From the NCBI GenBank assembly GCA_021157625.1, contig JAGGWD010000005.1:2118-66117 (forward strand): 64,000 nt of DNA, written 5' to 3'. Under the pieces are notes generated by a model that ran no database searches, was not told where the DNA came from, and saw nothing but the letters and a program-made list of their open reading frames with translations. Position numbers and translations under genes: made by a program. How positions within the stretch are numbered: the stretch's first letter is position 1; each line of letters begins with the position of its first letter. This document shows, piece by piece, positions 1 through 53,777 of this stretch. The DNA is from a bacterium (GTDB taxonomy: Bacteria; Patescibacteriota; Minisyncoccia; Minisyncoccales; JAGGXC01).

Positions 1-1226
1 CTAACCTCCTAACTATCTCAGAGGTTCCACCTCCTTTGATGCACTTAGCTCCTCTGATCTCAAAAAGAGATCAGAGTCCTGCTAAACGCAGGAAGATTTA
101 GGGACCTTAGATGGGAGTCAGGGCTGTTCCCCTCTCGACCTTGGACCTTAGCGCCCAAAGTCTAACTGCCGAGAATCCACAACCGGCATTCGGAGTTTGG
201 TTGGGATACCTGGCTTGAAACCACGGATATCCCATCCAGTGCTCTACCTCCGGTTGCTTCAAACTCGACGCTAGCCGAAAAGCTATTTCGGGGAGAACCA
301 GCTATTACCAAGCGCGGTTGGCCTTTCACCCCTTGCCACAGCTCATCCCAGAGTATTGCACGGCTCACGGGTTCGGGCCTCCCCCCGACTTTCGCCGGGG
401 TTCACCCTGGCCATGGCAAGCTCGCTTGGCTTCGGGTCTCCAACACCACCTCTAAAGGTCGCGCTATTAACGCTCGCTTTCACTATGCCTCCGCTCCAGA
501 GGAGCTTAGACAAAGGTGGTATTGGAACTCGTTGGCTCATTCTTCAATAGGCACGCCGTCACCCCGCCGAAGCGGAGCTCCGACTCTTTGTGGGCAAGAT
601 GGTTTCAGGTTCTATTTCACCGGGGTCACCCCCCTGCTTTTCACCTTTCCCTCACGGTACTAGTGCACTATCGGTGAGACGGACGTATTTAGCCTTGGCT
701 GGTAGTACAGCCTGCTTCCTCCGAGACTTTCGTTTCTCGGAGTACTCAAGAAAGATAACAAGGAGCGCAAAGGGGTTTTCGCCTACAGGACTATTACCTT
801 CTATGGTGCCCCTTTCCAGGGTGCTTCGGCTAACCAACCTTTGCCTAAATACTCTCCCTCGGCAAGCATTCTTGTGCACCAGGAATGCTCCCGACGTTAT
901 CTTCTTGCAACCCCTCAACAAAAATTTGTTGAGGTTTGGGCTCTTCCCTTTTCGCTCGCCGCTACTAAGGGAATGGTTTTGCGCAAAAGCGCAAAACTTT
1001 GTTTCTTTTCCTCCGCTTACTGAGATGTTTCACTTCAGCGGGTTCGCCTCTCGGCAGAAAGCCGAGATGTTCCGATTTATCATCGGAACGGGTTTCCCCA
1101 TTCGGAGATCCCCGGATCACAGGTTGCTAAGCACCTCCCCGGGGCTTATCGCAGCCACGCCACGTCCTTCATCGCCGCCGTCTCCCGAGGCATCCACCAT
1201 CTGCCCATAAAATGCTTCTCTTGGCC
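1..1226 (-). rRNA. rrl: 23S rRNA, 5' ~1.2 kb (remainder lies beyond the window start)
   Basis: Reverse complement of 1226->1150 reads GGCCAAGAGAAGCATTTTATGGGCAGATGGTGGATGCCTCGGGAGACGGCGGCGATGAAGGACGTGG, the conserved 23S 5' end. Plus strand ~1018-1033 is the complement of GUGAAACAUCUCAGUA. Plus strand 289-305 is the complement of GCUGGUUCUCCCCG. GC is far above the flanks, and ORFs here are short and mutually overlapping. Confidence 0.95.
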
Positions 1227-4582: not shown

Positions 4583-4605
4583 AGAATTGGAAGGAGGAGA
4601 GAACA

Positions 4606-43471: not shown

Positions 43472-45124
43472 TCATCTTTCCATCGAAAACTGCTTTAGAA
43501 CTGCTGATTTTATAATTCTCAATTCGGAACTCTTAAAAAGAAGACTCAAAATGAGATATACAGATACCCCTGCTATCCCTCCAAGACTTGCCTGAGAAAA
43601 CACTCCCAGAAATGTATGCATATCAACAATTTTAGCAACAGCGCGAAGCACAACTAAAACAACAAAACCAGCAACAATGCTAGCGAATATGATTTTTCGC
43701 AAAGAAGATAAAATCTCTTTTGCTCTTATCTCCCCTATCCTTTTGTGAAGAAAGTATAGAAGTAAAACAAACTGAAAAATAACTGCAATTGAAAAACCCA
43801 AGGGTAGACCCGTTACAGAAATGTTCTCAATTCCCTCAAGGTCAAGTACTCCAGAGACAAAATTATAAAAAGTTCCGCCAACACTCAAAACTTTAACAAA
43901 AGCAAGACTCAAGAGAATATTTAGGAAAACACCTCCCACAGCAATAAAGGTGGGAGTTTTTGTATCCTTGAAAGAAAAAAAAGCACGACAGATGAAAGGA
44001 ATAAGAGCAGAGGCAAATATACTTATACTAAATATCCCAAGACAAGCAGCGGTAAGACGAGTATCGTTCCATCCAAACCTTCCCGGCCCCAGACTTCCTA
44101 GAATGATTCTAACAAGCTGAGCTCTTAACAAAAATATTAAAATACTGGATGGAATGATCAAAAAAAGAATTTGCCTAAATACAGATGAGAAAGTATCAAG
44201 AAATTCTTCTCTTTTCTCCTCTGCCCATGATTTAGAAAGTCGCGGAAAAGAAGCTAATGCAAAGGATATTCCAAAGATCCCTACAGGCGCGTAATAGAGA
44301 TTATTTGCAAAATTAAAAATAGCAATACTTCCGGTTCCGAGAGTAGAAGCAATTCCAGTAATAACTATCAAATTGATCTGCTGAGCTCCTACCGCAAAGG
44401 AACGTGGAATCATGAGCGAAACAACCTCCTTTAGGGCGGAGTGTTTTATATCAAATAAAGGCAGATATCTAAAACCGCATCCAATGGCTGAGGGAATTTG
44501 GATAGCAAGATGTAAAAGCGCTCCTATAATTACCCCTATCCCTACCCCAAAAATTCCAAAAGAAGGTGCAAGGAACAATATACCAAATATAATCCCTATA
44601 TTATAAAGGATAGGAGCAACTGAATAGACAAGGAAGCGATTAAAATAATGAAGAATACTTGAAAAGATGTTTGAAATACCAAAAATAATTGGGCTCAGAA
44701 ACAAAAGACGCGTTAAAGAGATGGAGAGTCTCCGTGCTTCTGGACCAAAACCAGGAGCGATGACACCTATCAGCAACGGAGTGAACAAAAACAAAATGAA
44801 GCTTAAAACTACAAGAGCAATTAAGAAGACATTCAAGAGATTTGATGTCATTTTCCATGCTTTTTCTTTATCATGAGAATAATACTCCGAGAATAAAGGT
44901 AAGAACGCTATACCTAGTCCTCCTACAATCAAGAAATTATATATGAAATCAGGAATCCTAAAAGCAGCAAAATAGACATCTGTTTCAAGACCTGCTCCAA
45001 AATATCCTGCCAAGAGCCCATCTCTTATCAAACCCAAAATTCGGCTTGCTAGAGCCGAAAAAACCAAAAGTCCTGCAGCGAAGGTAACTGTTTTTGTCTG
45101 AGAATTAAAAAAACGTCCAATCAT
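43472..45124 (-). CDS. murJ: Lipid II flippase MurJ (MviN)
   Basis: 14-TM MOP-family profile. N-terminus AAGLLVFSALASRILGLIRDGLLAGYFGAG. Confidence 0.88.
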   Translation of the reverse strand: MIGRFFNSQTKTVTFAAGLLVFSALASRILGLIRDGLLAGYFGAGLETDVYFAAFRIPDFIYNFLIVGGLGIAFLPLFSEYYSHDKEKAWKMTSNLLNVFLIALVVLSFILFLFTPLLIGVIAPGFGPEARRLSISLTRLLFLSPIIFGISNIFSSILHYFNRFLVYSVAPILYNIGIIFGILFLAPSFGIFGVGIGVIIGALLHLAIQIPSAIGCGFRYLPLFDIKHSALKEVVSLMIPRSFAVGAQQINLIVITGIASTLGTGSIAIFNFANNLYYAPVGIFGISFALASFPRLSKSWAEEKREEFLDTFSSVFRQILFLIIPSSILIFLLRAQLVRIILGSLGPGRFGWNDTRLTAACLGIFSISIFASALIPFICRAFFSFKDTKTPTFIAVGGVFLNILLSLAFVKVLSVGGTFYNFVSGVLDLEGIENISVTGLPLGFSIAVIFQFVLLLYFLHKRIGEIRAKEILSSLRKIIFASIVAGFVVLVVLRAVAKIVDMHTFLGVFSQASLGGIAGVSVYLILSLLFKSSELRIIKSAVLKQFSMER

Positions 45125-45163: not shown

Positions 45164-45560
45164 AAAGCCCAACTAGGCTGTAAGCCGAATTCTGTACTTT
45201 TTCGGTATTTCTACCGAAAAAGTGGTAATCATTTCTCTGGGCCAGCAATTGCTTGCTGGCTCATGCGAACTACTTTTTCTTTTCGACAAATCCGGAGATT
45301 GTCGAAAAGTTTGTTCTTGCACCCGATAAGGATTTAGCCGTTTCACCCCCGAGATTTCTCTCGGGACTTTCCAACAACTCAGAGAGTTGTCGGAACCTCG
45401 GCTCTTTCGAGCCTCGGCGTCTCTGTTCGCACCTCTGGCCTCACGACCGACGGCTGTTAGCCGCTATCTTTTTTCCTTTCCGAATGGAAAGGAGGGTGTT
45501 CGGACTTTCCTTTCCGATTCCAAAAGGAATCGGAACGATTACCTCACCTAGTTGGGCTTT
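45164..45560 (-). ncRNA. rnpB: RNase P RNA, bacterial type A
   Basis: Minus strand: P1 5' AAGCCCAACUAGG pairs with 3' CCUAGUUGGGCUU. Conserved GGAAAGGAAAGUCCGAACACC near the 5' end, GGGGGUGAAACGGC internally, and ACAGAAUUCGGCUUACAGCC near the 3' end. GC-rich island. Confidence 0.9.
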
Positions 45561-45594
45561 ATTTTATAATAACCGAAGGTTTACTAATTGTCAA
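45538..45594 (-). repeat. Copy A of a promoter plus 22-nt transcript-start repeat (rnpB)
   Basis: TTGACA-17-TATTAT-AAAATA-AAGCCCAACTAGGTGAGGTAAT. Compare copy B at 47795-47852. Confidence 0.85.
45566..45594 (-). promoter_or_regulatory. Promoter of rnpB
   Basis: Minus strand: TTGACA (45594->45589), 17 nt, TATTAT (45571->45566). The mature 5' end lies ~6-7 nt downstream. Confidence 0.65.
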
Positions 45595-45596
45595 TC

Positions 45597-47561
45597 CTAT
45601 GGTGTTAGTGTTAGCGGATATTTATCACAATTATTCGTATCGGAACAATCGGAATCATTGTGTTCTACATCATAAGGAGAATCACAGAATCCGTCACTAT
45701 CGCTATCAGTACATTTATCAGAATAACCAGTTTTACTTGGGTTAGTCCAATAATTACCCCCAATCCATGGCCCTCCAATTATATTCGGACCTGGCTGTTT
45801 ATTCGTGTTCCATTCATTAGAGCCAGCATTAACCCAGTCAATCACAGGATTAGGAGAGTCAATATAGTTATTATAAATTTTGTTATTCATTGTAGATGGT
45901 TCCCACATCAGAAATGCCTCCTTATCTGTCGCTATCACGGTATTGTCAAAAATCTCATTACCAGAAACTCCCTGTAAAATAATTGTCTCTTCAAATGAAG
46001 TCAAATCATTACCGGAGATAACGTTATTGTTTGAACCCCATTGAAGGTGTAAAGCCCCGCTCATATTCGTTACTCTAGCAGTATTATCAGAAATAGTATT
46101 GTGTGTACAATTGTTTTTTAAATAAATTGCGCCTCCGTTTCCATCTATATCATTAGCAATGATATTATTATGGTTACTACCCGACGCTAACTTAATGTTT
46201 CCTTTAAGAGTGTTATTAGATATAGTACTATTAGAAACAGTGACGCAAACGATTGCAGGGTTGCCTATTCCTCCCTCTATAGTGTTATTAGAAATAATGG
46301 CATTAGACACATTATGGACATTAATTGCTAAATTGGACTCGTTTATAGTATTGCCGGAGATAGTAGCGTTTGAACTATTATTAAGCCAGATCGCATCCCC
46401 GGTACCTGCATCCAAAATATTATTGGCAATAGTAATTCCTGAGCCTCCTGCAACATAGATTGAGAATACATCACTTACATAAACATCGTTATTTTCTATA
46501 GTTGAGTTGTTTGCTCCTATATAGTAAATTCCATAATCTCCATCCGGACCATCCATATCTATTTTACAGTTCTTTACAGTGACATTACTATGACCGTTGT
46601 TCTTAATTCCGTAGTCTCCAGTACTCTGGAGATAATGCCCATTACAATCTAAGGTAATATCACTTGCATCTATGTAGATAATAGTTCCAGCACATCCTGT
46701 GATATCGCAATTTAGAGTAGTATCAGCAGTAATATGCATACCACAACAACAGCTCACTGTCACCGTAACAACAGCTTCATTAGATTGAGCTCCATGAATA
46801 TCTTTCACTGTATAAGTGAATTGATCCTGACCAAGATAACCAGGAGCAGGAATATATCTTATTTCTCCCGTTGCAAGAGGAGTAGCTGTACCATGAGAAG
46901 GATTTTGCTCGACCACCACTGTACTTGGATCTATCTCAGCACCCCCATCATCAGGATCACTATCATTAGCTAAAACATCTATATCGATTGCGGTCTCTAT
47001 ACAAGTAGTAGCGCTGTCGGGGTTCGCAACAGGAGGATTATTGGAAGGAGGCGGTGGTGACGATCCTGGTGAATTATATACAACAGCTTTACCTCCTATA
47101 GAATAGACTTCATAGGGAGGCATAGTTTCAAGATCAGCATGGAATTTGTATTGGGAAGCAGATGAAGTAGTAATGTATTGATAGGAATAGTATTTTGTTC
47201 CTTCTGTCTGAAGGGCTCGTGGATCTTGAGGGAGATCCTTTATATACTTTGGTACAAGTTCTTGTCTGAGATATTTACAATAATGAGGATCAGTAGAATC
47301 TGTTATTTCCAGAGAACACCAATCTTCTGAATCGGTGGAGGTAGGATAATGTCCATGTTCAAGATAATACATCTGGACTGCTTTCCTTAGATCGTTTATC
47401 TCTGAGATTCTCCTTGAATCCCTGGCTTTGGCTTTACTATGCGAGAAGTACATTACAATTAAGACAGCCAATATTCCAATAATAAAAATGATTACTAAGA
47501 GTTCTGGAAGAGTAAAAGCTTTTTGCCTTTTGAAGGTTGCTTTTTTGAAAGATAATATCAT
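45597..47561 (-). CDS. Giant type IV pilin-like protein: N-terminal prepilin/methylation helix plus Ig/cadherin-like domain plus parallel beta-helix repeats plus Asp/Cys-rich C-terminus
   Basis: KAFTLPELLVIIFIIGILAVLIV (class III signal), ...ANDSDPDDG...FTYTVKD... (cadherin/VCBS-like), many NxxIxxN beta-helix turns (ISNNTI, ISGNTI, IANNIL), and C-terminal CTDSDSDGFCDSPYD. Confidence 0.85.
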   Translation of the reverse strand: MILSFKKATFKRQKAFTLPELLVIIFIIGILAVLIVMYFSHSKAKARDSRRISEINDLRKAVQMYYLEHGHYPTSTDSEDWCSLEITDSTDPHYCKYLRQELVPKYIKDLPQDPRALQTEGTKYYSYQYITTSSASQYKFHADLETMPPYEVYSIGGKAVVYNSPGSSPPPPSNNPPVANPDSATTCIETAIDIDVLANDSDPDDGGAEIDPSTVVVEQNPSHGTATPLATGEIRYIPAPGYLGQDQFTYTVKDIHGAQSNEAVVTVTVSCCCGMHITADTTLNCDITGCAGTIIYIDASDITLDCNGHYLQSTGDYGIKNNGHSNVTVKNCKIDMDGPDGDYGIYYIGANNSTIENNDVYVSDVFSIYVAGGSGITIANNILDAGTGDAIWLNNSSNATISGNTINESNLAINVHNVSNAIISNNTIEGGIGNPAIVCVTVSNSTISNNTLKGNIKLASGSNHNNIIANDIDGNGGAIYLKNNCTHNTISDNTARVTNMSGALHLQWGSNNNVISGNDLTSFEETIILQGVSGNEIFDNTVIATDKEAFLMWEPSTMNNKIYNNYIDSPNPVIDWVNAGSNEWNTNKQPGPNIIGGPWIGGNYWTNPSKTGYSDKCTDSDSDGFCDSPYDVEHNDSDCSDTNNCDKYPLTLTP

Positions 47562-47794
47562 CTTTTGGAAGACAAGTTACTTTATGGAAATTGTAACTTT
47601 TCAAAATTGCTCACCACTCAAGATGAACATCAGATCATTACGGTGAGAGTAACAGTTGTGACTGTAGAAGAGACACGCGTTATAATTGGAGAAAAAGTTG
47701 TGACAGTGAGGATTACTGAATGTCGAAAGACACAAGTCTTTCCGTTGGAATCGAGTTTAACTATTAGAACATCTTCTTTAAAAGAATCAAAATA

Positions 47795-47852
47795 ATTATC
47801 TCACCTAATTGGGCTTTTATATTAAAATATTAGATAATTTAAGAAATGTCAA
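47795..47852 (-). repeat. Copy B of a promoter plus 22-nt transcript-start repeat (upstream of the pilin gene)
   Basis: TTGACA-17-TATTTT-AATATAA-AAGCCCAATTAGGTGAGATAAT. The transcribed 22-mer matches the rnpB 5' end at 20 of 22 positions. Confidence 0.85.
47824..47852 (-). promoter_or_regulatory. Promoter candidate for the pilin gene (predicted ~255-nt leader)
   Basis: Minus strand: TTGACA (47852->47847), 17 nt, TATTTT (47829->47824). Confidence 0.55.
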
Positions 47853-47872: not shown

Positions 47873-48316
47873 TTACAACAATCTCTGAGTTGTATTTCTT
47901 TTATTTAGAGATTCATTCACGAGTCTGTCGGCTTCTTTATTTTTTTTCCTTGGGATACAGAGGAATTTAACTTTTCCAAAATCAAACTTCAAATTCCAGA
48001 CCTCCAGAAACAATGGTTGGATTTTTTTATCTAAAATTTTATACTCTCCATTAAGTTGCTTTGTCAAAAATTCGGAGTCGGTTCTCACTTCTACTTCTAG
48101 ATTCCTTGTTTTTTTCTTTCCAAAAAGACTTTTAAGTTTCTTTAAACCAAAAATCACTGCCATATATTCGGCTTGATTATTAGTAAGACTATCTCCCAAA
48201 TAATGGGCATACCTTTTTATTACTTGATTTTGGGAATTACAAATCAAAACACCTGCTCCTGCAGGACCAGGATTACCCCGTGATCCTCCATCAGTGTAAA
48301 GGATAATTTTCTCCAT
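47873..48316 (-). CDS. rnhA: Ribonuclease HI
   Basis: YTDGGSRGNPGPAGAGV...NNQAEYMAVIFGL...VRTDSEF...ADRL (DEDD catalytic pattern). Confidence 0.88.
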   Translation of the reverse strand: MEKIILYTDGGSRGNPGPAGAGVLICNSQNQVIKRYAHYLGDSLTNNQAEYMAVIFGLKKLKSLFGKKKTRNLEVEVRTDSEFLTKQLNGEYKILDKKIQPLFLEVWNLKFDFGKVKFLCIPRKKNKEADRLVNESLNKRNTTQRLL

Positions 48317-50881: not shown

Positions 50882-52504
50882 TTACTCCTGATCTTTTGTT
50901 GTCTGTTTTTTGATGTTATCTTGAGATGAATTCCTAAGAGACTCCTCCAAGGCTTTTCTGAGCTCTTCAAGACTTACTTCTTTTTTTGGTTTGTGGATCG
51001 ATTTTTTTTGAGAAGGAATTACAGGCGGAGGTAACCTTTCCTCTGAAAAAGAAACTGGTTTGCCTTCCGGAGTTATCTGGCCTTTTTCAATTTTCTTAAG
51101 ACAGGACTTGCAATAAACAGGGCGATTAGGATCAGGTTGAAAAGGAACCTTAATTTGCTTTCCGCAAGCAAAGCACCGGGCATCATAAAGAACGGGAATT
51201 GTAACTGAAGAAGGAGTTTGAGTAGCAGTTGTACTCTCTGACCACCGAGCAATTTTTGCCTCAACAATCTTGCGAGGAGTACCGTATCTTTCTCTTGAGA
51301 CCTTTATAATCTTTTCTTTGTTGGATTTTTCAGGTTTTTGGAATGGAGGAAGGGTTTCTGCAGAAAAAGGTCTTCCTGCTACTCCATCAATCATCAATTT
51401 GATATAGATATTATATTTAGCAAGATTCACTAAATCTTCAGCCGAAAACTCAGGAGAAAACTCTTTCTCTAAGTACTCTGCGTCTTCAGCACCTACTCTA
51501 AAAGCAACTATAGTGCCTACATTACCAAATACCGCATCTCTTACTTTCTCATCCATTTGAGCAATATATTGATGTGCAAGAATCAAACAGAGTCTATACT
51601 TTCTTGCTTCTGAAAGAATGCTCACAAAACTTTCTGTAGCAAAATTCTGGAACTCATCTACATAAAGATAGAAATCCTTTCTCTGTTCTTCTGGAATAGT
51701 CACCCTCTGCATTGCTGCTAACTGAATTTTGGTAATTAAAAGAGCTCCGAGAAGATGAGAAGCGTCTTCTCCTATCCTTCCTTTGGAAAGATTTAAAATC
51801 AGAATCTTTTGTTTATCCATCACTTCTCTCATATCAATAGTAGATTTCACCTGTCCAATGATATTTCTGATCAAAGGAGCAGAGATAAACTGTCCTACTT
51901 TATTTTGAATAGCAGCAGTAGCTTCTACCTCATAGCGTTGGGTATAGCGAGCAAATTCCTGTGTCCAGAAAGCCTTAACTACTGGATCAGTAATCTTGGA
52001 GATTACTTTCTCTCTAAAAGCAGGATCAGCAAGCATTCTATTTATAGCCAAAAGGGTAGAACCAGGATATTCCAAAAGCGCCAATATACAGTTATTTAAG
52101 ATATATTCCATTCGTGGCGACCATACATCAGGCCATATCTTCTTAAAAACTCCCATCAGCCCTCCTGCTACCAAATGACGGTGTGCCACATCTACTTTCT
52201 CCATTACATTGAAAGCAATTGGATAATCTATATCGGCAGGATTGAAATAAACAACATCATTAATCCTTGAAGAAGGAACAAAATCAAGAAGTCTCTCTGC
52301 TGCCTCTCCATGAGGATCAACAAAAGCAAGGCCTTTTCCATTGCGAATATCCTGAATAGCCATATTTTCCATCATTGCTGTTTTTCCCATTCCAGTCTTT
52401 CCAACAATATACATATGCCGTCTTCTGTCATCGGCCTTAATTCCAAACTTTTTTCGGATATTGCGAAATGTTGTTTCTGCAAAAAAATTAATCTCTTCTG
52501 CCAT
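50882..52504 (-). CDS. VirD4/TraD/TraG-family type IV coupling-protein-like ATPase with a C-terminal CxxC-x17-CxxC zinc ribbon
   Basis: Walker A VGKTGMGKT, Walker B LYVDEFQNF, TraG-D_C-like ARKYRLCLILAHQYIAQM...GNVGTIVAFRVG, and C-terminal CFACGKQIKVPFQPDPNRPVYCKSC (51101-51175). Confidence 0.8.
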   Translation of the reverse strand: MAEEINFFAETTFRNIRKKFGIKADDRRRHMYIVGKTGMGKTAMMENMAIQDIRNGKGLAFVDPHGEAAERLLDFVPSSRINDVVYFNPADIDYPIAFNVMEKVDVAHRHLVAGGLMGVFKKIWPDVWSPRMEYILNNCILALLEYPGSTLLAINRMLADPAFREKVISKITDPVVKAFWTQEFARYTQRYEVEATAAIQNKVGQFISAPLIRNIIGQVKSTIDMREVMDKQKILILNLSKGRIGEDASHLLGALLITKIQLAAMQRVTIPEEQRKDFYLYVDEFQNFATESFVSILSEARKYRLCLILAHQYIAQMDEKVRDAVFGNVGTIVAFRVGAEDAEYLEKEFSPEFSAEDLVNLAKYNIYIKLMIDGVAGRPFSAETLPPFQKPEKSNKEKIIKVSRERYGTPRKIVEAKIARWSESTTATQTPSSVTIPVLYDARCFACGKQIKVPFQPDPNRPVYCKSCLKKIEKGQITPEGKPVSFSEERLPPPVIPSQKKSIHKPKKEVSLEELRKALEESLRNSSQDNIKKQTTKDQE

Positions 52505-52508
52505 AAGA

Positions 52509-53777
52509 TTATTCTGTAGGAAGCCCAGGAGGAGCTTCTTTTTTCTTTGCTTCTATTCGAGGAAGGGTTGGTGCAGGAGCAACCATCCTTCCAGGAAAGT
52601 GATATAAAGTGGCTATCTCATCGGTAGTTAGCACAAAAGTTCCTCCTGGTTCTGGAAATAAAGGAGAGAATCTTCTTTTATATCTCAAAAAAATCGCCCT
52701 TTGCTTTGCATACGTTCGCATTTTTTTCAAAAACCATTGGACTTTTGGAAGAGTACGTGTCCATGGTTTCAGACCATTAAGATTTTCGGTAGACACATTT
52801 TTGAAAAACCCATAAAACATTCTGGATTTTGCTTTCAGGAATACATCTCTTTTTGCAATATAAAGACATCGGATATTGGTTACAAATCCAAATTTTCCAA
52901 TTTTCTCTTCAATTGCTTTCACTATTTCTCTCTCTCCTGGAGTTAACTTCATTTCAGGAGGAATCACCTCTACTTCTTTCTTTTCTGAAGGCGCTTTACC
53001 TGGTGGTTTTCCGCTAATTAGCAAATCAGCAGCTTCTTTAAAAATCGAAGGAAGAGAAGAAGGTTTCTTTTCTCTATGAACTAATTTATCCACCAACTCT
53101 TTTCCTCTTTTTTGCCACGGAATCTCTTCTCTGATTGGCTTTATTATTATCTGAAGCCACATATATTCCCCTTGGCCAATACTTGCCATACCTTCAAGAA
53201 GTCCTGCCAATGGATCAAGTCGTTTTTGCTCTTTTGTTTCTTTCATCTCTTCGAAATATTTGTAGGTCTTTATAGGATAAGGATCTTCTTTTGTGGCCAC
53301 GAAATCAAAACCAAAAAGATCCCATTCTTCATTAGGGATGTCGTAAGGCACAAAATTAGTATAATCCTCCGCAAGAGAAATCTCTGCGTCTGGGTATTGA
53401 GAATAAATATTGGACTCAATAACACTTCTGAAAGCAGCAGGAGCTCTTATAAAGAAATGAATCTCTCCTTCAAGACTGGCAATCTCTAATGCTATTGAAT
53501 ATTGAAATTCCCCTTGTAGCCATGTTTCTCTCCAGGTAAACACATCGTGAACTCCATGAAAGCCCGCTATTACCTGCTCCATTGCTTTTATTGGCTTTTC
53601 TACCTCTCGAGGAATCTTGACTTCCAGGATAATTTTCTTTACCCCTGAGTCATACTGCTCCATCTTGTAGAATCTCCAAAAAAAGAGAAAACGAGGATAC
53701 AACAAGAAAGGTAAAGGTAGCCACCACCAATTCTTTATAACCAACCAAAGATTTGTTAAAACAAAATAAAAATCCAT
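52509..53777 (-). CDS. Membrane-anchored hypothetical protein, partner of the coupling-protein-like ATPase
   Basis: Trp-rich N-terminal TM (LWLVIKNWWWLPLPFLLYP), then a ~380-aa soluble domain. There is a 4-nt gap to the ATPase gene. Confidence 0.65.
   Translation of the reverse strand: MDFYFVLTNLWLVIKNWWWLPLPFLLYPRFLFFWRFYKMEQYDSGVKKIILEVKIPREVEKPIKAMEQVIAGFHGVHDVFTWRETWLQGEFQYSIALEIASLEGEIHFFIRAPAAFRSVIESNIYSQYPDAEISLAEDYTNFVPYDIPNEEWDLFGFDFVATKEDPYPIKTYKYFEEMKETKEQKRLDPLAGLLEGMASIGQGEYMWLQIIIKPIREEIPWQKRGKELVDKLVHREKKPSSLPSIFKEAADLLISGKPPGKAPSEKKEVEVIPPEMKLTPGEREIVKAIEEKIGKFGFVTNIRCLYIAKRDVFLKAKSRMFYGFFKNVSTENLNGLKPWTRTLPKVQWFLKKMRTYAKQRAIFLRYKRRFSPLFPEPGGTFVLTTDEIATLYHFPGRMVAPAPTLPRIEAKKKEAPPGLPTE

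What the first reader, a model, noticed from the sequence alone, without database searches (positions are those of the whole stretch)
45538..47852. The pilin gene is bracketed by direct repeats of the rnpB promoter plus the first 22 nt of RNase P RNA
Seen:
- The rnpB promoter and start read TTGACA-17-TATTAT-AAAATA-AAGCCCAACTAGGTGAGGTAAT (45594->45538).
- About 2.26 kb upstream, in front of the pilin gene, is TTGACA-17-TATTTT-AATATAA-AAGCCCAATTAGGTGAGATAAT (47852->47795).
- The hexamers and the 22 transcribed nt are nearly identical (20 of 22). The 17-nt spacers differ.
- The pilin stop is only 3 nt from the rnpB -35, and I see no terminator between them.
- The pilin mRNA 5' end therefore copies the P1 5' strand of RNase P RNA. 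It is complementary (allowing one G-U pair) to the rnpB 3' strand CCUAGUUGGGCUU (45177->45165).

Inference, three possibilities:
1. The pilin cassette inserted between the rnpB promoter and rnpB, with a target or promoter duplication. Recombination between the repeats would then delete it cleanly, giving possible on/off variation.
2. The shared 5' tag links pilin mRNA fate to RNase P.
3. A read-through pilin-rnpB precursor folds its two ends together.
Basis: partly seen in the sequence, partly recalled or inferred. Interest (0 to 1): 0.65.

Follow-up and report, generated by a model that had tools for sequence, protein, structure and literature searches.

The report
Pilin gene wedged into rnpB's start
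In this tiny groundwater-type bacterium, a gene for a pilin-like surface protein sits between the RNase P RNA gene and its original promoter, flanked by two copies of the first ~44 bases of that RNA, and sister strains lack exactly this insert, so it is a strain-variable cassette, not a new regulatory link to RNase P.

Summary
rnpB (Rfam class A, 145 bits) lies at 45165-45560(-). Its first bases recur 2,257 nt upstream, in front of a 654-aa pilin-like ORF. The 22-mer occurs only twice in 64 kb (0 expected).

Comparison with relatives shows what this is:
- About 35 related Patescibacteria keep the order PGK-DHH-RNaseH-[TTGACA-17-TAnnnT]-rnpB-MurJ, with no gene between RNase H and rnpB.
- Copy B therefore sits at the ancestral rnpB promoter position, next to the RNase H stop. 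It now drives the pilin gene.
- The pilin leader begins with a 44-nt relic of rnpB (37/44 identical). Six of the seven changes are GC->AT, as expected for neutral decay.
- Five contigs of the same species (98.0-98.6% identical, five samples) lack exactly the interval between the repeats. Seven carry it.
- Cassette presence does not follow the genealogy of the flanking DNA, so recombination has added or removed it more than once.
- One more distant relative (L006) has an orthologous pilin in the same slot but no relic.

A fast on/off switch is not shown. Possibilities 2 and 3 (a functional RNase P tag, end-to-end folding) have no support. Whether the empty alleles arose by loss or are ancestral, and how the duplication first arose, remain unresolved.

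The parts
45165..45560 (-). rnpB, bacterial class A RNase P RNA. The P1 5' strand is AAAGCCCAACUAGG at 45560-45547.
   Evidence: Rfam RF00010, 145 bits, E 1.2e-44, full model 1-367. Orthologues in L074, L006 and L030 score 137-143 bits.
45166..45179 (-). P1 3' strand followed by a T-run. This is the only terminator-like signal downstream of the pilin ORF, and probably ends both the rnpB and the pilin read-through transcripts.
   Evidence: Terminator scan; sequence.
45517..45560 (-). Repeat copy A: the functional first 44 nt of rnpB (5' strands of P1 and P2, and the P3 hairpin).
   Evidence: (D3).
45566..45594 (-). Promoter A (TTGACA-17-TATTAT). It begins 2 nt after the pilin stop codon and now drives rnpB.
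   Evidence: 11/12. The same pilin-stop/-35 junction and a similar spacer occur in L006.
45597..47561 (-). 654-aa pilin-like protein: class III signal (prepilin N-methylation motif), Big_9/cadherin-like Ig domain, and a NosD/right-handed beta-helix.
   Evidence: Pfam: N_methyl 24.9 bits (cut-off 21.2), Big_9 1.4e-18, NosD 1.2e-30, Beta_helix 1.3e-23. GC3 is 27.5%, matching the neighbours at 26.6-28.4%.
47562..47773 (-). Unique part of the pilin leader, about 212 nt of unknown origin.
   Evidence: No similarity to rnpB beyond +44, even with transition-tolerant scoring. No Rfam match. Fold z-score -1.4. Found only in this species.
47774..47817 (-). Repeat copy B: a decaying 44-nt relic of the rnpB 5' end, now the predicted 5' end of the pilin mRNA.
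   Evidence: 37/44 identical to the L083-type rnpB. Six of the seven changes are GC->AT. Alignments of the empty alleles end at 47780 or 47774.
47824..47852 (-). Promoter B (TTGACA-17-TATTTT), 20 nt after the RNase H stop. This is the ancestral rnpB promoter position, and it now drives the pilin gene.
   Evidence: 10/12. Relatives place the rnpB promoter 0-21 nt after, or overlapping, the RNase H stop. The empty alleles join this same promoter type directly to an intact rnpB.
47873..48316 (-). RNase H-like gene, the conserved upstream neighbour of rnpB in the clade.
   Evidence: Pfam RVT_3/RNase_H; synteny.
43472..45124 (-). murJ, the conserved downstream neighbour of rnpB.
   Evidence: Pfam MurJ 8.3e-86; synteny.
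45561..47817 (-). The 2,257-nt interval (one repeat unit plus leader, pilin ORF and promoter A) that is absent from five contigs of the same species.
   Evidence: Two-block alignments that overlap inside the repeat.

Best explanation
A single-gene cassette has been inserted into the very start of the essential rnpB gene. The cassette consists of the leader, the pilin-like adhesin gene and promoter A.

The insertion was survivable because the first ~44 nt of rnpB were duplicated. The downstream copy (A), with promoter A, keeps RNase P RNA intact and expressed. The upstream copy (B) stayed behind the original rnpB promoter next to the RNase H gene. It is now only the first 44 nt of the pilin mRNA, and it is decaying under AT-biased mutation.

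Within the species two allele classes coexist, with and without the cassette. They differ by exactly one repeat period. Recombination moves or removes the cassette between strains. This could be one crossover between the two repeats, or replacement of the whole allele through the conserved flanks.

Status of each step:
- Shown: the duplication, its position, the decay pattern, the precise presence/absence polymorphism, and the uncoupling of the cassette from its flank.
- Inferred: that promoter B drives the pilin gene, that pilin transcripts read through into rnpB, and the recombination mechanism.
- Unresolved: whether the empty alleles arose by loss, and how the duplication first arose.
For: 1. 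Ancestral order. PGK-DHH-RNaseH-rnpB-MurJ is conserved in about 35 relatives, with nothing between RNase H and rnpB in most. A TTGAC-16..18-TAnnnT promoter lies directly before rnpB in 35 of 37, abutting or overlapping the RNase H stop. Copy B occupies that position.
2. The repeat is specific. No relative has a second copy of its rnpB 5' region, and the 22-mer occurs only twice in the window.
3. The relic is decaying. It is 37/44 identical to functional rnpB. Changes hit 6 of 17 G/C sites and 1 of 27 A/T sites. No homology extends beyond +44.
4. Empty alleles. L074, L081, L083, L084 and L089 are 98.0-98.6% identical to the window. Each aligns in two blocks, ending at 47780/47774 and restarting at 45595/45571. 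Their rnpB is intact.
5. Cassette alleles. Seven contigs carry the cassette.
6. Cassette and flank are uncoupled. Downstream of the repeat, the cassette-bearing L085/L086 differ from the empty L074 and L083 by 7-9 sites, but from the cassette-bearing window by 36-37. Their cassette nevertheless differs from the window's by only 8 sites in 2,183 nt.
7. The insertion is old. L006, at about 72% amino-acid identity, has an orthologous pilin in the same slot. Its C-terminal 78 aa are 67% identical, and the stop/-35 junction with promoter A is the same.
8. The pilin gene is not compositionally foreign: GC3 is 27.5%.
Against: - Polarity is unresolved. All five empty alleles fall in one MurJ-defined clade, and every cassette allele whose B copy is assembled falls in the other. 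The 12.5% divergence of the B promoter therefore cannot be assigned to allele class or to clade.
- Divergence along the region is very uneven (0.4-2.2%). The low cassette divergence is suggestive of recent transfer, not conclusive.
- L006 lacks the relic, so either it lost it or the relic arose later than the pilin insertion.
- Homology of the two promoters is not demonstrable beyond the consensus hexamers.
- No transcript data exist for either start site.
- The phylogenetic position of L006 relative to the cassette-free L030 is unresolved.
Confidence: 0.75

Rival explanations
1. Active on/off switch. Frequent intrachromosomal recombination between the two repeats repeatedly deletes the cassette within clonal populations, as a form of phase variation.
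For: The empty alleles are exactly the predicted product. Three independent assemblies break at copy B. L085 and L086 start at the 3' edge of the 22-mer, and L082 starts inside the leader, which hints at heterogeneity within samples.
Against: The longest exact identity between the copies is now 9 nt (AAAGCCCAA), over a 2.26-kb distance. That is poor substrate for frequent recombination. Deletion is irreversible without DNA import. All five empty alleles share the same B-type promoter variant (TAATAT -10), unlike the window's TATTTT. That fits one old event or an old allele better than repeated recent deletions from a window-like chromosome. Contig breaks have many other causes.
Confidence: 0.1
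2. The empty allele is the never-interrupted ancestor, kept in the species alongside the cassette allele. The cassette spreads only by gain, through homologous recombination in the RNase H and rnpB-murJ flanks. The repeats play no part after the first insertion.
For: The B promoter is far more diverged between window and empty alleles (12.5%) than neighbouring DNA (about 0.4-2.2%), as expected for old haplotypes. The cassette-bearing L085/L086 are nested among empty alleles, with a cassette that is nearly window-like.
Against: L006 carries an orthologous pilin in the same slot at housekeeping-level divergence. That makes the cassette state older than the species. The relic's decay (16% on one lineage) is about ten times the divergence between strains. 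Keeping an uninterrupted allele across that span would need very long-lived polymorphism.
Confidence: 0.25
3. The shared 5' tag is functional. It could tie pilin mRNA stability or translation to RNase P. Alternatively, in a pilin-rnpB read-through transcript, it could pair with the rnpB 3' strand and close the whole transcript.
For: The first 22 nt are better kept (20/22) than the next 22. The B tag can still pair with the P1 3' strand: predicted duplex -24.1 kcal/mol, against -30.6 for the true partner (I19). No terminator separates the pilin gene from rnpB.
Against: All changes are on the B copy and nearly all are GC->AT. G18->A breaks the P2 partner. The difference between 2/22 and 5/22 changes is small-number noise. 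The L006 orthologue has no tag. The true P1 5' strand is closer and fully complementary, so it should outcompete the tag. The leader shows no unusual structure and matches no RNA family.
Confidence: 0.05
4. Chance or convergence: two strong promoters with similar initial transcribed sequences, or an assembly artefact.
For: The hexamers are consensus sequences, and the spacers match at only 8/17.
Against: No chance matches to the 22-mer are expected. The arrangement appears in seven contigs from at least five samples. The empty alleles show direct continuity of promoter B with rnpB. The shared exact k-mer of 9 nt is too short to cause misassembly.
Confidence: 0.01

Closest known systems
Genomic islands and prophages integrated into tRNA or tmRNA genes, flanked by direct repeats of a fragment of the RNA gene (from general knowledge; background in bioRxiv 10.1101/2020.11.02.365908, found)
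   Same: The insert lies in an essential structured-RNA gene. The gene is kept intact because the insert is bracketed by a duplicated piece of it. A displaced fragment is left at the far end. Strains with and without the insert differ by exactly one repeat period.
   Different: The insert sits at the 5' end with the promoter region, not the 3' end. The target is rnpB, not a tRNA or tmRNA gene. There is no integrase or any other mobility gene, only a single 2-kb ORF. The displaced fragment is heavily decayed, so this is not a recent site-specific event.
Deletion or Campbell-type excision and integration between short direct repeats, and homology-driven allelic replacement in naturally transformable bacteria (from general knowledge)
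   Same: The product structure matches: one repeat plus the intervening DNA is missing, and the junction is a B/A hybrid. Cassette presence is uncoupled from the genealogy of the flank.
   Different: The mechanism has not been observed here. The present repeats are short and diverged. No RecA dependence or frequency data exist.
Type IV pilins and pilin-like adhesins of Patescibacteria, for example the Saccharibacteria T4P involved in host binding and twitching (PMC11623550, found)
   Same: The protein has an N-terminal prepilin cleavage/methylation motif on a surface protein, in an ultrasmall bacterium that is probably episymbiotic. A paralogue lies elsewhere in the genome.
   Different: This protein is 654 aa, with Ig-like and beta-helix passenger domains, so it resembles a pilus-displayed adhesin more than a major pilin. 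No functional data exist. The organism belongs to the Nealsonbacteria/Parcubacteria group, not Saccharibacteria.

Membership tests
Bacterial RNase P RNA, class A (RF00010) | Covariance-model score above the gathering threshold over the full model, with the P4 strands present | tested here: met
   145 bits against 100, model positions 1-367. GGAAAGTCC and ACAGAA..GGCTTA are present.
Type IV pilin-like (class III signal) proteins | N-terminal prepilin cleavage/methylation motif with Glu at +5, followed by a hydrophobic helix | tested here: met
   PF07963 at 24.9 bits, above the 21.2 cut-off. The sequence reads KA/FTLPELLVIIFIIGIL. The -1 residue is Ala, not the usual Gly.
Type IV pilin-like (class III signal) proteins | Pilin/pseudopilin globular domain | tested here: inconclusive
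   T2SSG scores 18 bits, below its 21-bit cut-off. The rest of the protein is Big_9 plus a NosD beta-helix.
Type IV pilin-like (class III signal) proteins | Prepilin peptidase and pilus assembly genes in the same genome | not tested
   The window was not screened for pilB, pilC or pilD.
Integrase-mediated island at an RNA gene (tRNA/tmRNA type) | Direct repeats made of a fragment of the target RNA gene, bracketing the insert | tested here: met
Integrase-mediated island at an RNA gene (tRNA/tmRNA type) | Tyrosine or serine recombinase encoded in the insert | tested here: not met
   The only ORF with Pfam support in 45561-47817 is the pilin-like gene, and it has no recombinase domain.
Integrase-mediated island at an RNA gene (tRNA/tmRNA type) | Insert compositionally or phyletically foreign | tested here: not met
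   GC3 is 27.5%, against 26.6-28.4% in the neighbours. A paralogue exists in the same genome.
Phase variation (reversible switch) | A reversible mechanism: an invertible element with an invertase, or a simple-sequence repeat tract | tested here: not met
   No inverted repeats bracket the promoter, no invertase is present, and no simple-sequence tract was seen.
Phase variation (reversible switch) | Both states present within one clonal population | not testable with these tools
   Only assembled contigs are available. The contig breaks at copy B are suggestive only.
Presence/absence polymorphism bounded by direct repeats | Conspecific genomes that differ by exactly one repeat period, with a hybrid junction | tested here: met
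   Five empty contigs at 98.0-98.6% identity. The alignment blocks overlap inside the repeat. The junction joins the B-type promoter and discriminator to an intact tag.

The most novel reading that the evidence does not exclude
The cassette plus one repeat (2,257 nt) behaves as an integrase-free module that can excise and re-insert. As a circle it would be a complete gene: promoter A, the rnpB-like leader, then the pilin ORF. It would enter or leave the chromosome by a single crossover in the first ~44 nt of the essential rnpB gene, swapping promoters each time. This would let populations of ultrasmall bacteria trade a host-attachment adhesin using an RNA gene's 5' end as a host-supplied attachment site. 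The retained 22-mer would then be kept by selection or repeated conversion, as the recombination site.
Probability: 0.1. Interest if true: 0.6.

Novelty: new variant of a known kind. Interest (0 to 1): 0.4.

Why it matters
This is a clean natural example of an essential ribozyme gene tolerating an insertion at its very start. A short duplication rescues it, and the original promoter is handed over to a surface-adhesin gene.

It also shows that a pilin-like adhesin is a strain-variable cassette in an uncultivated Patescibacteria species. Pilins are thought to mediate host contact in this group, so the locus is a candidate determinant of host range or attachment. It is also a usable marker of recombination within these populations.

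The finding does not reveal a new regulatory principle.

Tried and rejected
- A fully decayed second rnpB in the 256-nt leader. Local alignment, including transition-tolerant scoring and comparison with a second rnpB allele, gave scores at or below shuffled controls beyond +44.
- A known RNA element in the leader. There is no Rfam match below E=0.3, and folding is no better than shuffles (z -1.4).
- The 22-mer as a generic promoter-proximal motif. It has two sites in the window. No relative has a second copy of its own rnpB 5' region in its locus. In 241 million metagenome records the pattern hit only two contigs of this species plus two unrelated chance matches, L071 and L073.
- Foreign origin of the pilin gene. 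Its composition matches its neighbours. The closest homologues are a paralogue in the same genome (P0006) and the L006 orthologue.
- A deletion inside rnpB in L003. It is a 10-N scaffold gap.
- Placing the right-hand crossover of the cassette in L085/L086 inside the tag. The markers are a homopolymer indel and a site that is polymorphic within clade I, so this cannot be resolved.
- Resolving whether L006 or the cassette-free L030 is closer to the window. Concatenated DHH, RNase H and MurJ give 72.4% against 72.8%, so this is unresolved.
- Pilin-like inserts in the same slot in other relatives. The other inserts are unrelated genes.
- Literature on rnpB promoter duplication or rnpB as an integration site. 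Nothing relevant was found.
Full report
**1. The observation**

- Rfam places a full-length class A RNase P RNA at 45165-45555(-): 145 bits against a gathering score of 100. P1 can extend to 45559/45560.
- A 654-aa ORF at 45597-47561(-) ends 2 nt before a TTGACA-17-TATTAT promoter-like site (45594-45566).
- A second site, TTGACA-17-TATTTT (47852-47824), lies 2,258 nt upstream. These are the two best sigma-70 matches in the 3.7 kb scanned, at 11/12 and 10/12.
- The 22-mer AAGCCCAAYTAGGTGAGRTAAT occurs exactly twice in 64 kb even with three mismatches allowed, with none expected in shuffles.
- The repeat finder extends the match to 38 nt at 82% (45523-45560 and 47780-47817). It adds the promoter stretch at 71%, offset by one base.
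- No terminator-like site lies between the pilin stop and rnpB, or in the pilin leader. The only one downstream is the P1 3' strand plus T-run at 45179-45166.

**2. The genes**

- The ORF carries a prepilin N-methylation motif (24.9 bits, cut-off 21.2). It also has a Big_9/cadherin-like domain and a NosD/right-handed beta-helix. It is a large pilin-like adhesin rather than a major pilin.
- The neighbours are an RNase H-like gene (47873-48316), a DHH phosphoesterase, PGK, and MurJ downstream of rnpB.
- Relatives found through MurJ are MAGs named Nealsonbacteria, Parcubacteria, Paceibacterota or Patescibacteria.

**3. What relatives show**

- In about 35 species-level relatives the order is PGK-DHH-RNaseH-rnpB-MurJ.
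- In most, nothing lies between RNase H and rnpB. The rnpB promoter abuts or overlaps the RNase H stop codon.
- A TTGAC-16..18-TAnnnT element sits directly in front of rnpB in 35 of 37 relatives. It is therefore a real, conserved promoter.
- None of these relatives has a second copy of its own rnpB 5' region.
- In the window, copy B lies 20 nt after the RNase H stop, at the ancestral promoter position. Copy A is the displaced or added one.
- One relative, L006 (MAG AUK142, about 72% amino-acid identity), has a 758-aa pilin-like ORF in the same slot. The N-terminal 170 aa are 46% identical, the C-terminal 78 aa are 67% identical, and the middle is unrelated. Its stop lies 2 nt from a promoter A that resembles the window's. 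Its rnpB tag is identical at 22/22.
- Upstream of the L006 pilin there is a promoter right after RNase H (TTGACT-17-GATAAT), but only a short leader and no rnpB relic.

**4. The predicted variant exists**

A metagenome scan with the tag found L074. It is 98.1-98.2% identical to the window on both sides, and its order is RNaseH-promoter-rnpB-MurJ with no pilin gene. Its two alignments to the window overlap by 74 nt, which is one repeat unit. The junction carries the B-type spacer and discriminator (aatataaaa) followed by an intact tag and rnpB. That rnpB scores 142.6 bits.

Cluster members of MurJ and DHH and their contigs gave more alleles of the same species.

| State | Contigs |
|---|---|
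| Empty | L074, L081 (103-kb contig), L083, L084, L089; five different samples |
| Cassette-bearing | window, L001, L002, L003, L072=L086, L082, L085 |

Every empty contig aligns in two blocks at 98.0-98.6%. The blocks end at 47780 or 47774 and restart at 45595 or 45571. The longest exact match between the two repeats is 9 nt, so k-mer misassembly cannot explain these contigs.

**5. The relic**

- Three empty alleles (L083, L084, L089) have a different P3 hairpin: GATTC-TTTAAAA-GAATC. Against this allele the B copy matches to +44 at 37/44.
- The seven changes are all on the B copy. Six are C->T or G->A, hitting 6 of 17 G/C sites against 1 of 27 A/T sites. This is the signature of relaxed constraint in a 35% GC genome.
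- One change, G18->A, would break the P2 partner.
- Beyond +44 the leader has no similarity to rnpB, even with transition-tolerant scoring. It also has no Rfam match, no unusual stability (z -1.4) and no homologue outside this species.
- The relic has diverged about 16% on a single lineage, roughly ten times the divergence between strains. The duplication is therefore much older than the strains compared.

**6. Population history**

- In the 2.1 kb from the murJ start onward that the contigs share, a neighbour-joining tree gives two clades. Clade I holds the window, L001, L002 and L082, all with the cassette. Clade II holds the empty L081, L074, L083 and L084, with the cassette-bearing L085/L086 nested among them.
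- L085/L086 differ from the empty L074 and L083 by 7-9 sites, but from the window by 36-37. Thirty-five sites group L072 with L074.
- The L086 cassette nevertheless differs from the window's by only 8 sites in 2,183 nt, and only 3 of those are in the 1,965-nt ORF.
- Cassette presence is therefore uncoupled from the flank. Recombination has added or removed it more than once.
- The simplest account is one loss, or an old empty allele, followed by one re-import from clade I.

Limits on this account:
- Divergence along the region is very uneven, from 0.4 to 2.2%.
- The crossover points cannot be placed.
- The B copy is assembled only for clade I cassette alleles, while all empty alleles are in clade II. 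The elevated divergence of the B promoter (12.5%) therefore cannot be attributed to allele class or to clade.
- Three assemblies break at copy B. L085 and L086 begin at the 3' edge of the 22-mer. L090, from the same sample as L085, ends inside RNase H. L082 begins inside the leader. This hints at heterogeneity within samples but proves nothing.

**7. Mechanism**

- Shown: the duplication, its position, the decay pattern, the precise indel and the uncoupling from the flank.
- Inferred: promoter B now transcribes the pilin gene with a ~256-nt leader that starts with the relic. Transcripts run on into rnpB, as transcripts from RNase H presumably do in relatives, where the stop codon abuts the -35. 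Promoter A supplies the mature rnpB 5' end.
- Formally, the structure is what a single crossover would produce between chromosomal rnpB(1-44) and a circle carrying promoter A, rnpB(1-44), the leader and the pilin gene. Whether that is how it arose is unknown.
- The two promoters cannot be shown to be homologous. The hexamers are consensus and the spacers match at 8/17.

**8.

- The B tag can still pair with the P1 3' strand: -24.1 kcal/mol, against -30.6 for the true partner.
- However, the true partner is closer and fully complementary, the tag is decaying, and the L006 orthologue lacks it.
- I give each of these readings about 5% or less. Only transcript mapping or mutagenesis could exclude them.

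**9. Comparison with known systems and verdict**

The arrangement works like an island in a tRNA or tmRNA gene: the RNA gene is kept intact by a duplicated fragment, and a displaced fragment marks the far end. It fails the membership test for that class because it has no recombinase, it sits at the 5' end with the promoter, and it is not compositionally foreign. It is not a reversible phase-variation switch by any tested criterion. Literature searches found nothing on rnpB promoter duplication or on rnpB as an insertion site. Pilins of Patescibacteria are known to mediate host interaction (PMC11623550).

Verdict: a real, well-explained structure, best described as a new variant of a known kind. 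It is of moderate interest, as a strain-variable adhesin cassette embedded in the start of an essential ribozyme gene.

Noticed in passing
L011, L019, L020, L024-L026, L031-L034, L037, L039, L040, L043, L049, L051, L052, compared with L004-L010 and others: rnpB keeps its place between RNase H and MurJ in about 37 relatives, but it lies on either strand: 20 on the same strand as MurJ and 17 inverted. A structured-RNA gene and its promoter have been flipped in place repeatedly.
   Followed up: partly
L020 8091-9377; L025 7448-9928; L046 7409-9015; L053 8728-9681; L037 3274-4086: The same RNaseH-rnpB-MurJ slot holds unrelated extra genes in several other relatives, so it is a general hot spot for insertions.
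   Followed up: partly
window 45517-45533; L083 about 4583-4600: The rnpB P3 hairpin has two forms within the species: CCGATTCC-TTTT(T)-GGAATCGG and CCGATTC-TTTAAAA-GAATCGG. The relic in front of the pilin gene matches the second form, which the window's own rnpB no longer has.
   Followed up: yes
window 43880-43931 (inside murJ): There are 13 differences in 52 nt between the two strain clades, far above the 1-2% background. This looks like an imported recombination patch.
   Followed up: no
window 47647-47665 and 47689-47707: A 19-nt direct repeat (84% identical, 42 nt apart; ACAGTCACAACTGTTACTC and ACTGTCACAACTTTTTCTC on the minus strand) lies inside the pilin leader. It could be a protein-binding site or an old duplication (D19).
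   Followed up: no
L075 713-1855 (also L076, L077): A 380-aa prepilin paralogue (P0006) from the same samples, apparently the same organism, shares 76.7% nucleotide identity over 459 nt with codons ~13-165 of the 654-aa gene. It shares nothing with the leader or the promoter. It lies next to Fe-ADH and rpsL-rpsG-fusA.
   Followed up: partly
L086 and L085 position 1; L090 end; L082 position 1: Three independent assemblies break at or near copy B. Two contigs start exactly at the 3' edge of the B 22-mer. The upstream contig from one of those samples stops inside RNase H, leaving a gap of about 140 nt. This may reflect mixed alleles within those samples.
   Followed up: partly
L003 2508-2517: An apparent 106-nt deletion inside rnpB is a run of 10 N, which is a scaffolding gap and not biology.
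   Followed up: yes
window about 50990-52600 (-); L081 1-1501: A TrwB/TraG-like coupling-protein gene with a zinc-finger domain lies just upstream of PGK, next to a DUF8128 gene and a sigma-70-like gene. This recalls the conjugation-type T4SS reported in Patescibacteria (PMC12102498).
   Followed up: no
window 1-1220 (-): The 5' part of the 23S rRNA contains extra segments relative to the Rfam bacterial LSU model, for example an insertion of about 45 nt near model position 313.
   Followed up: no
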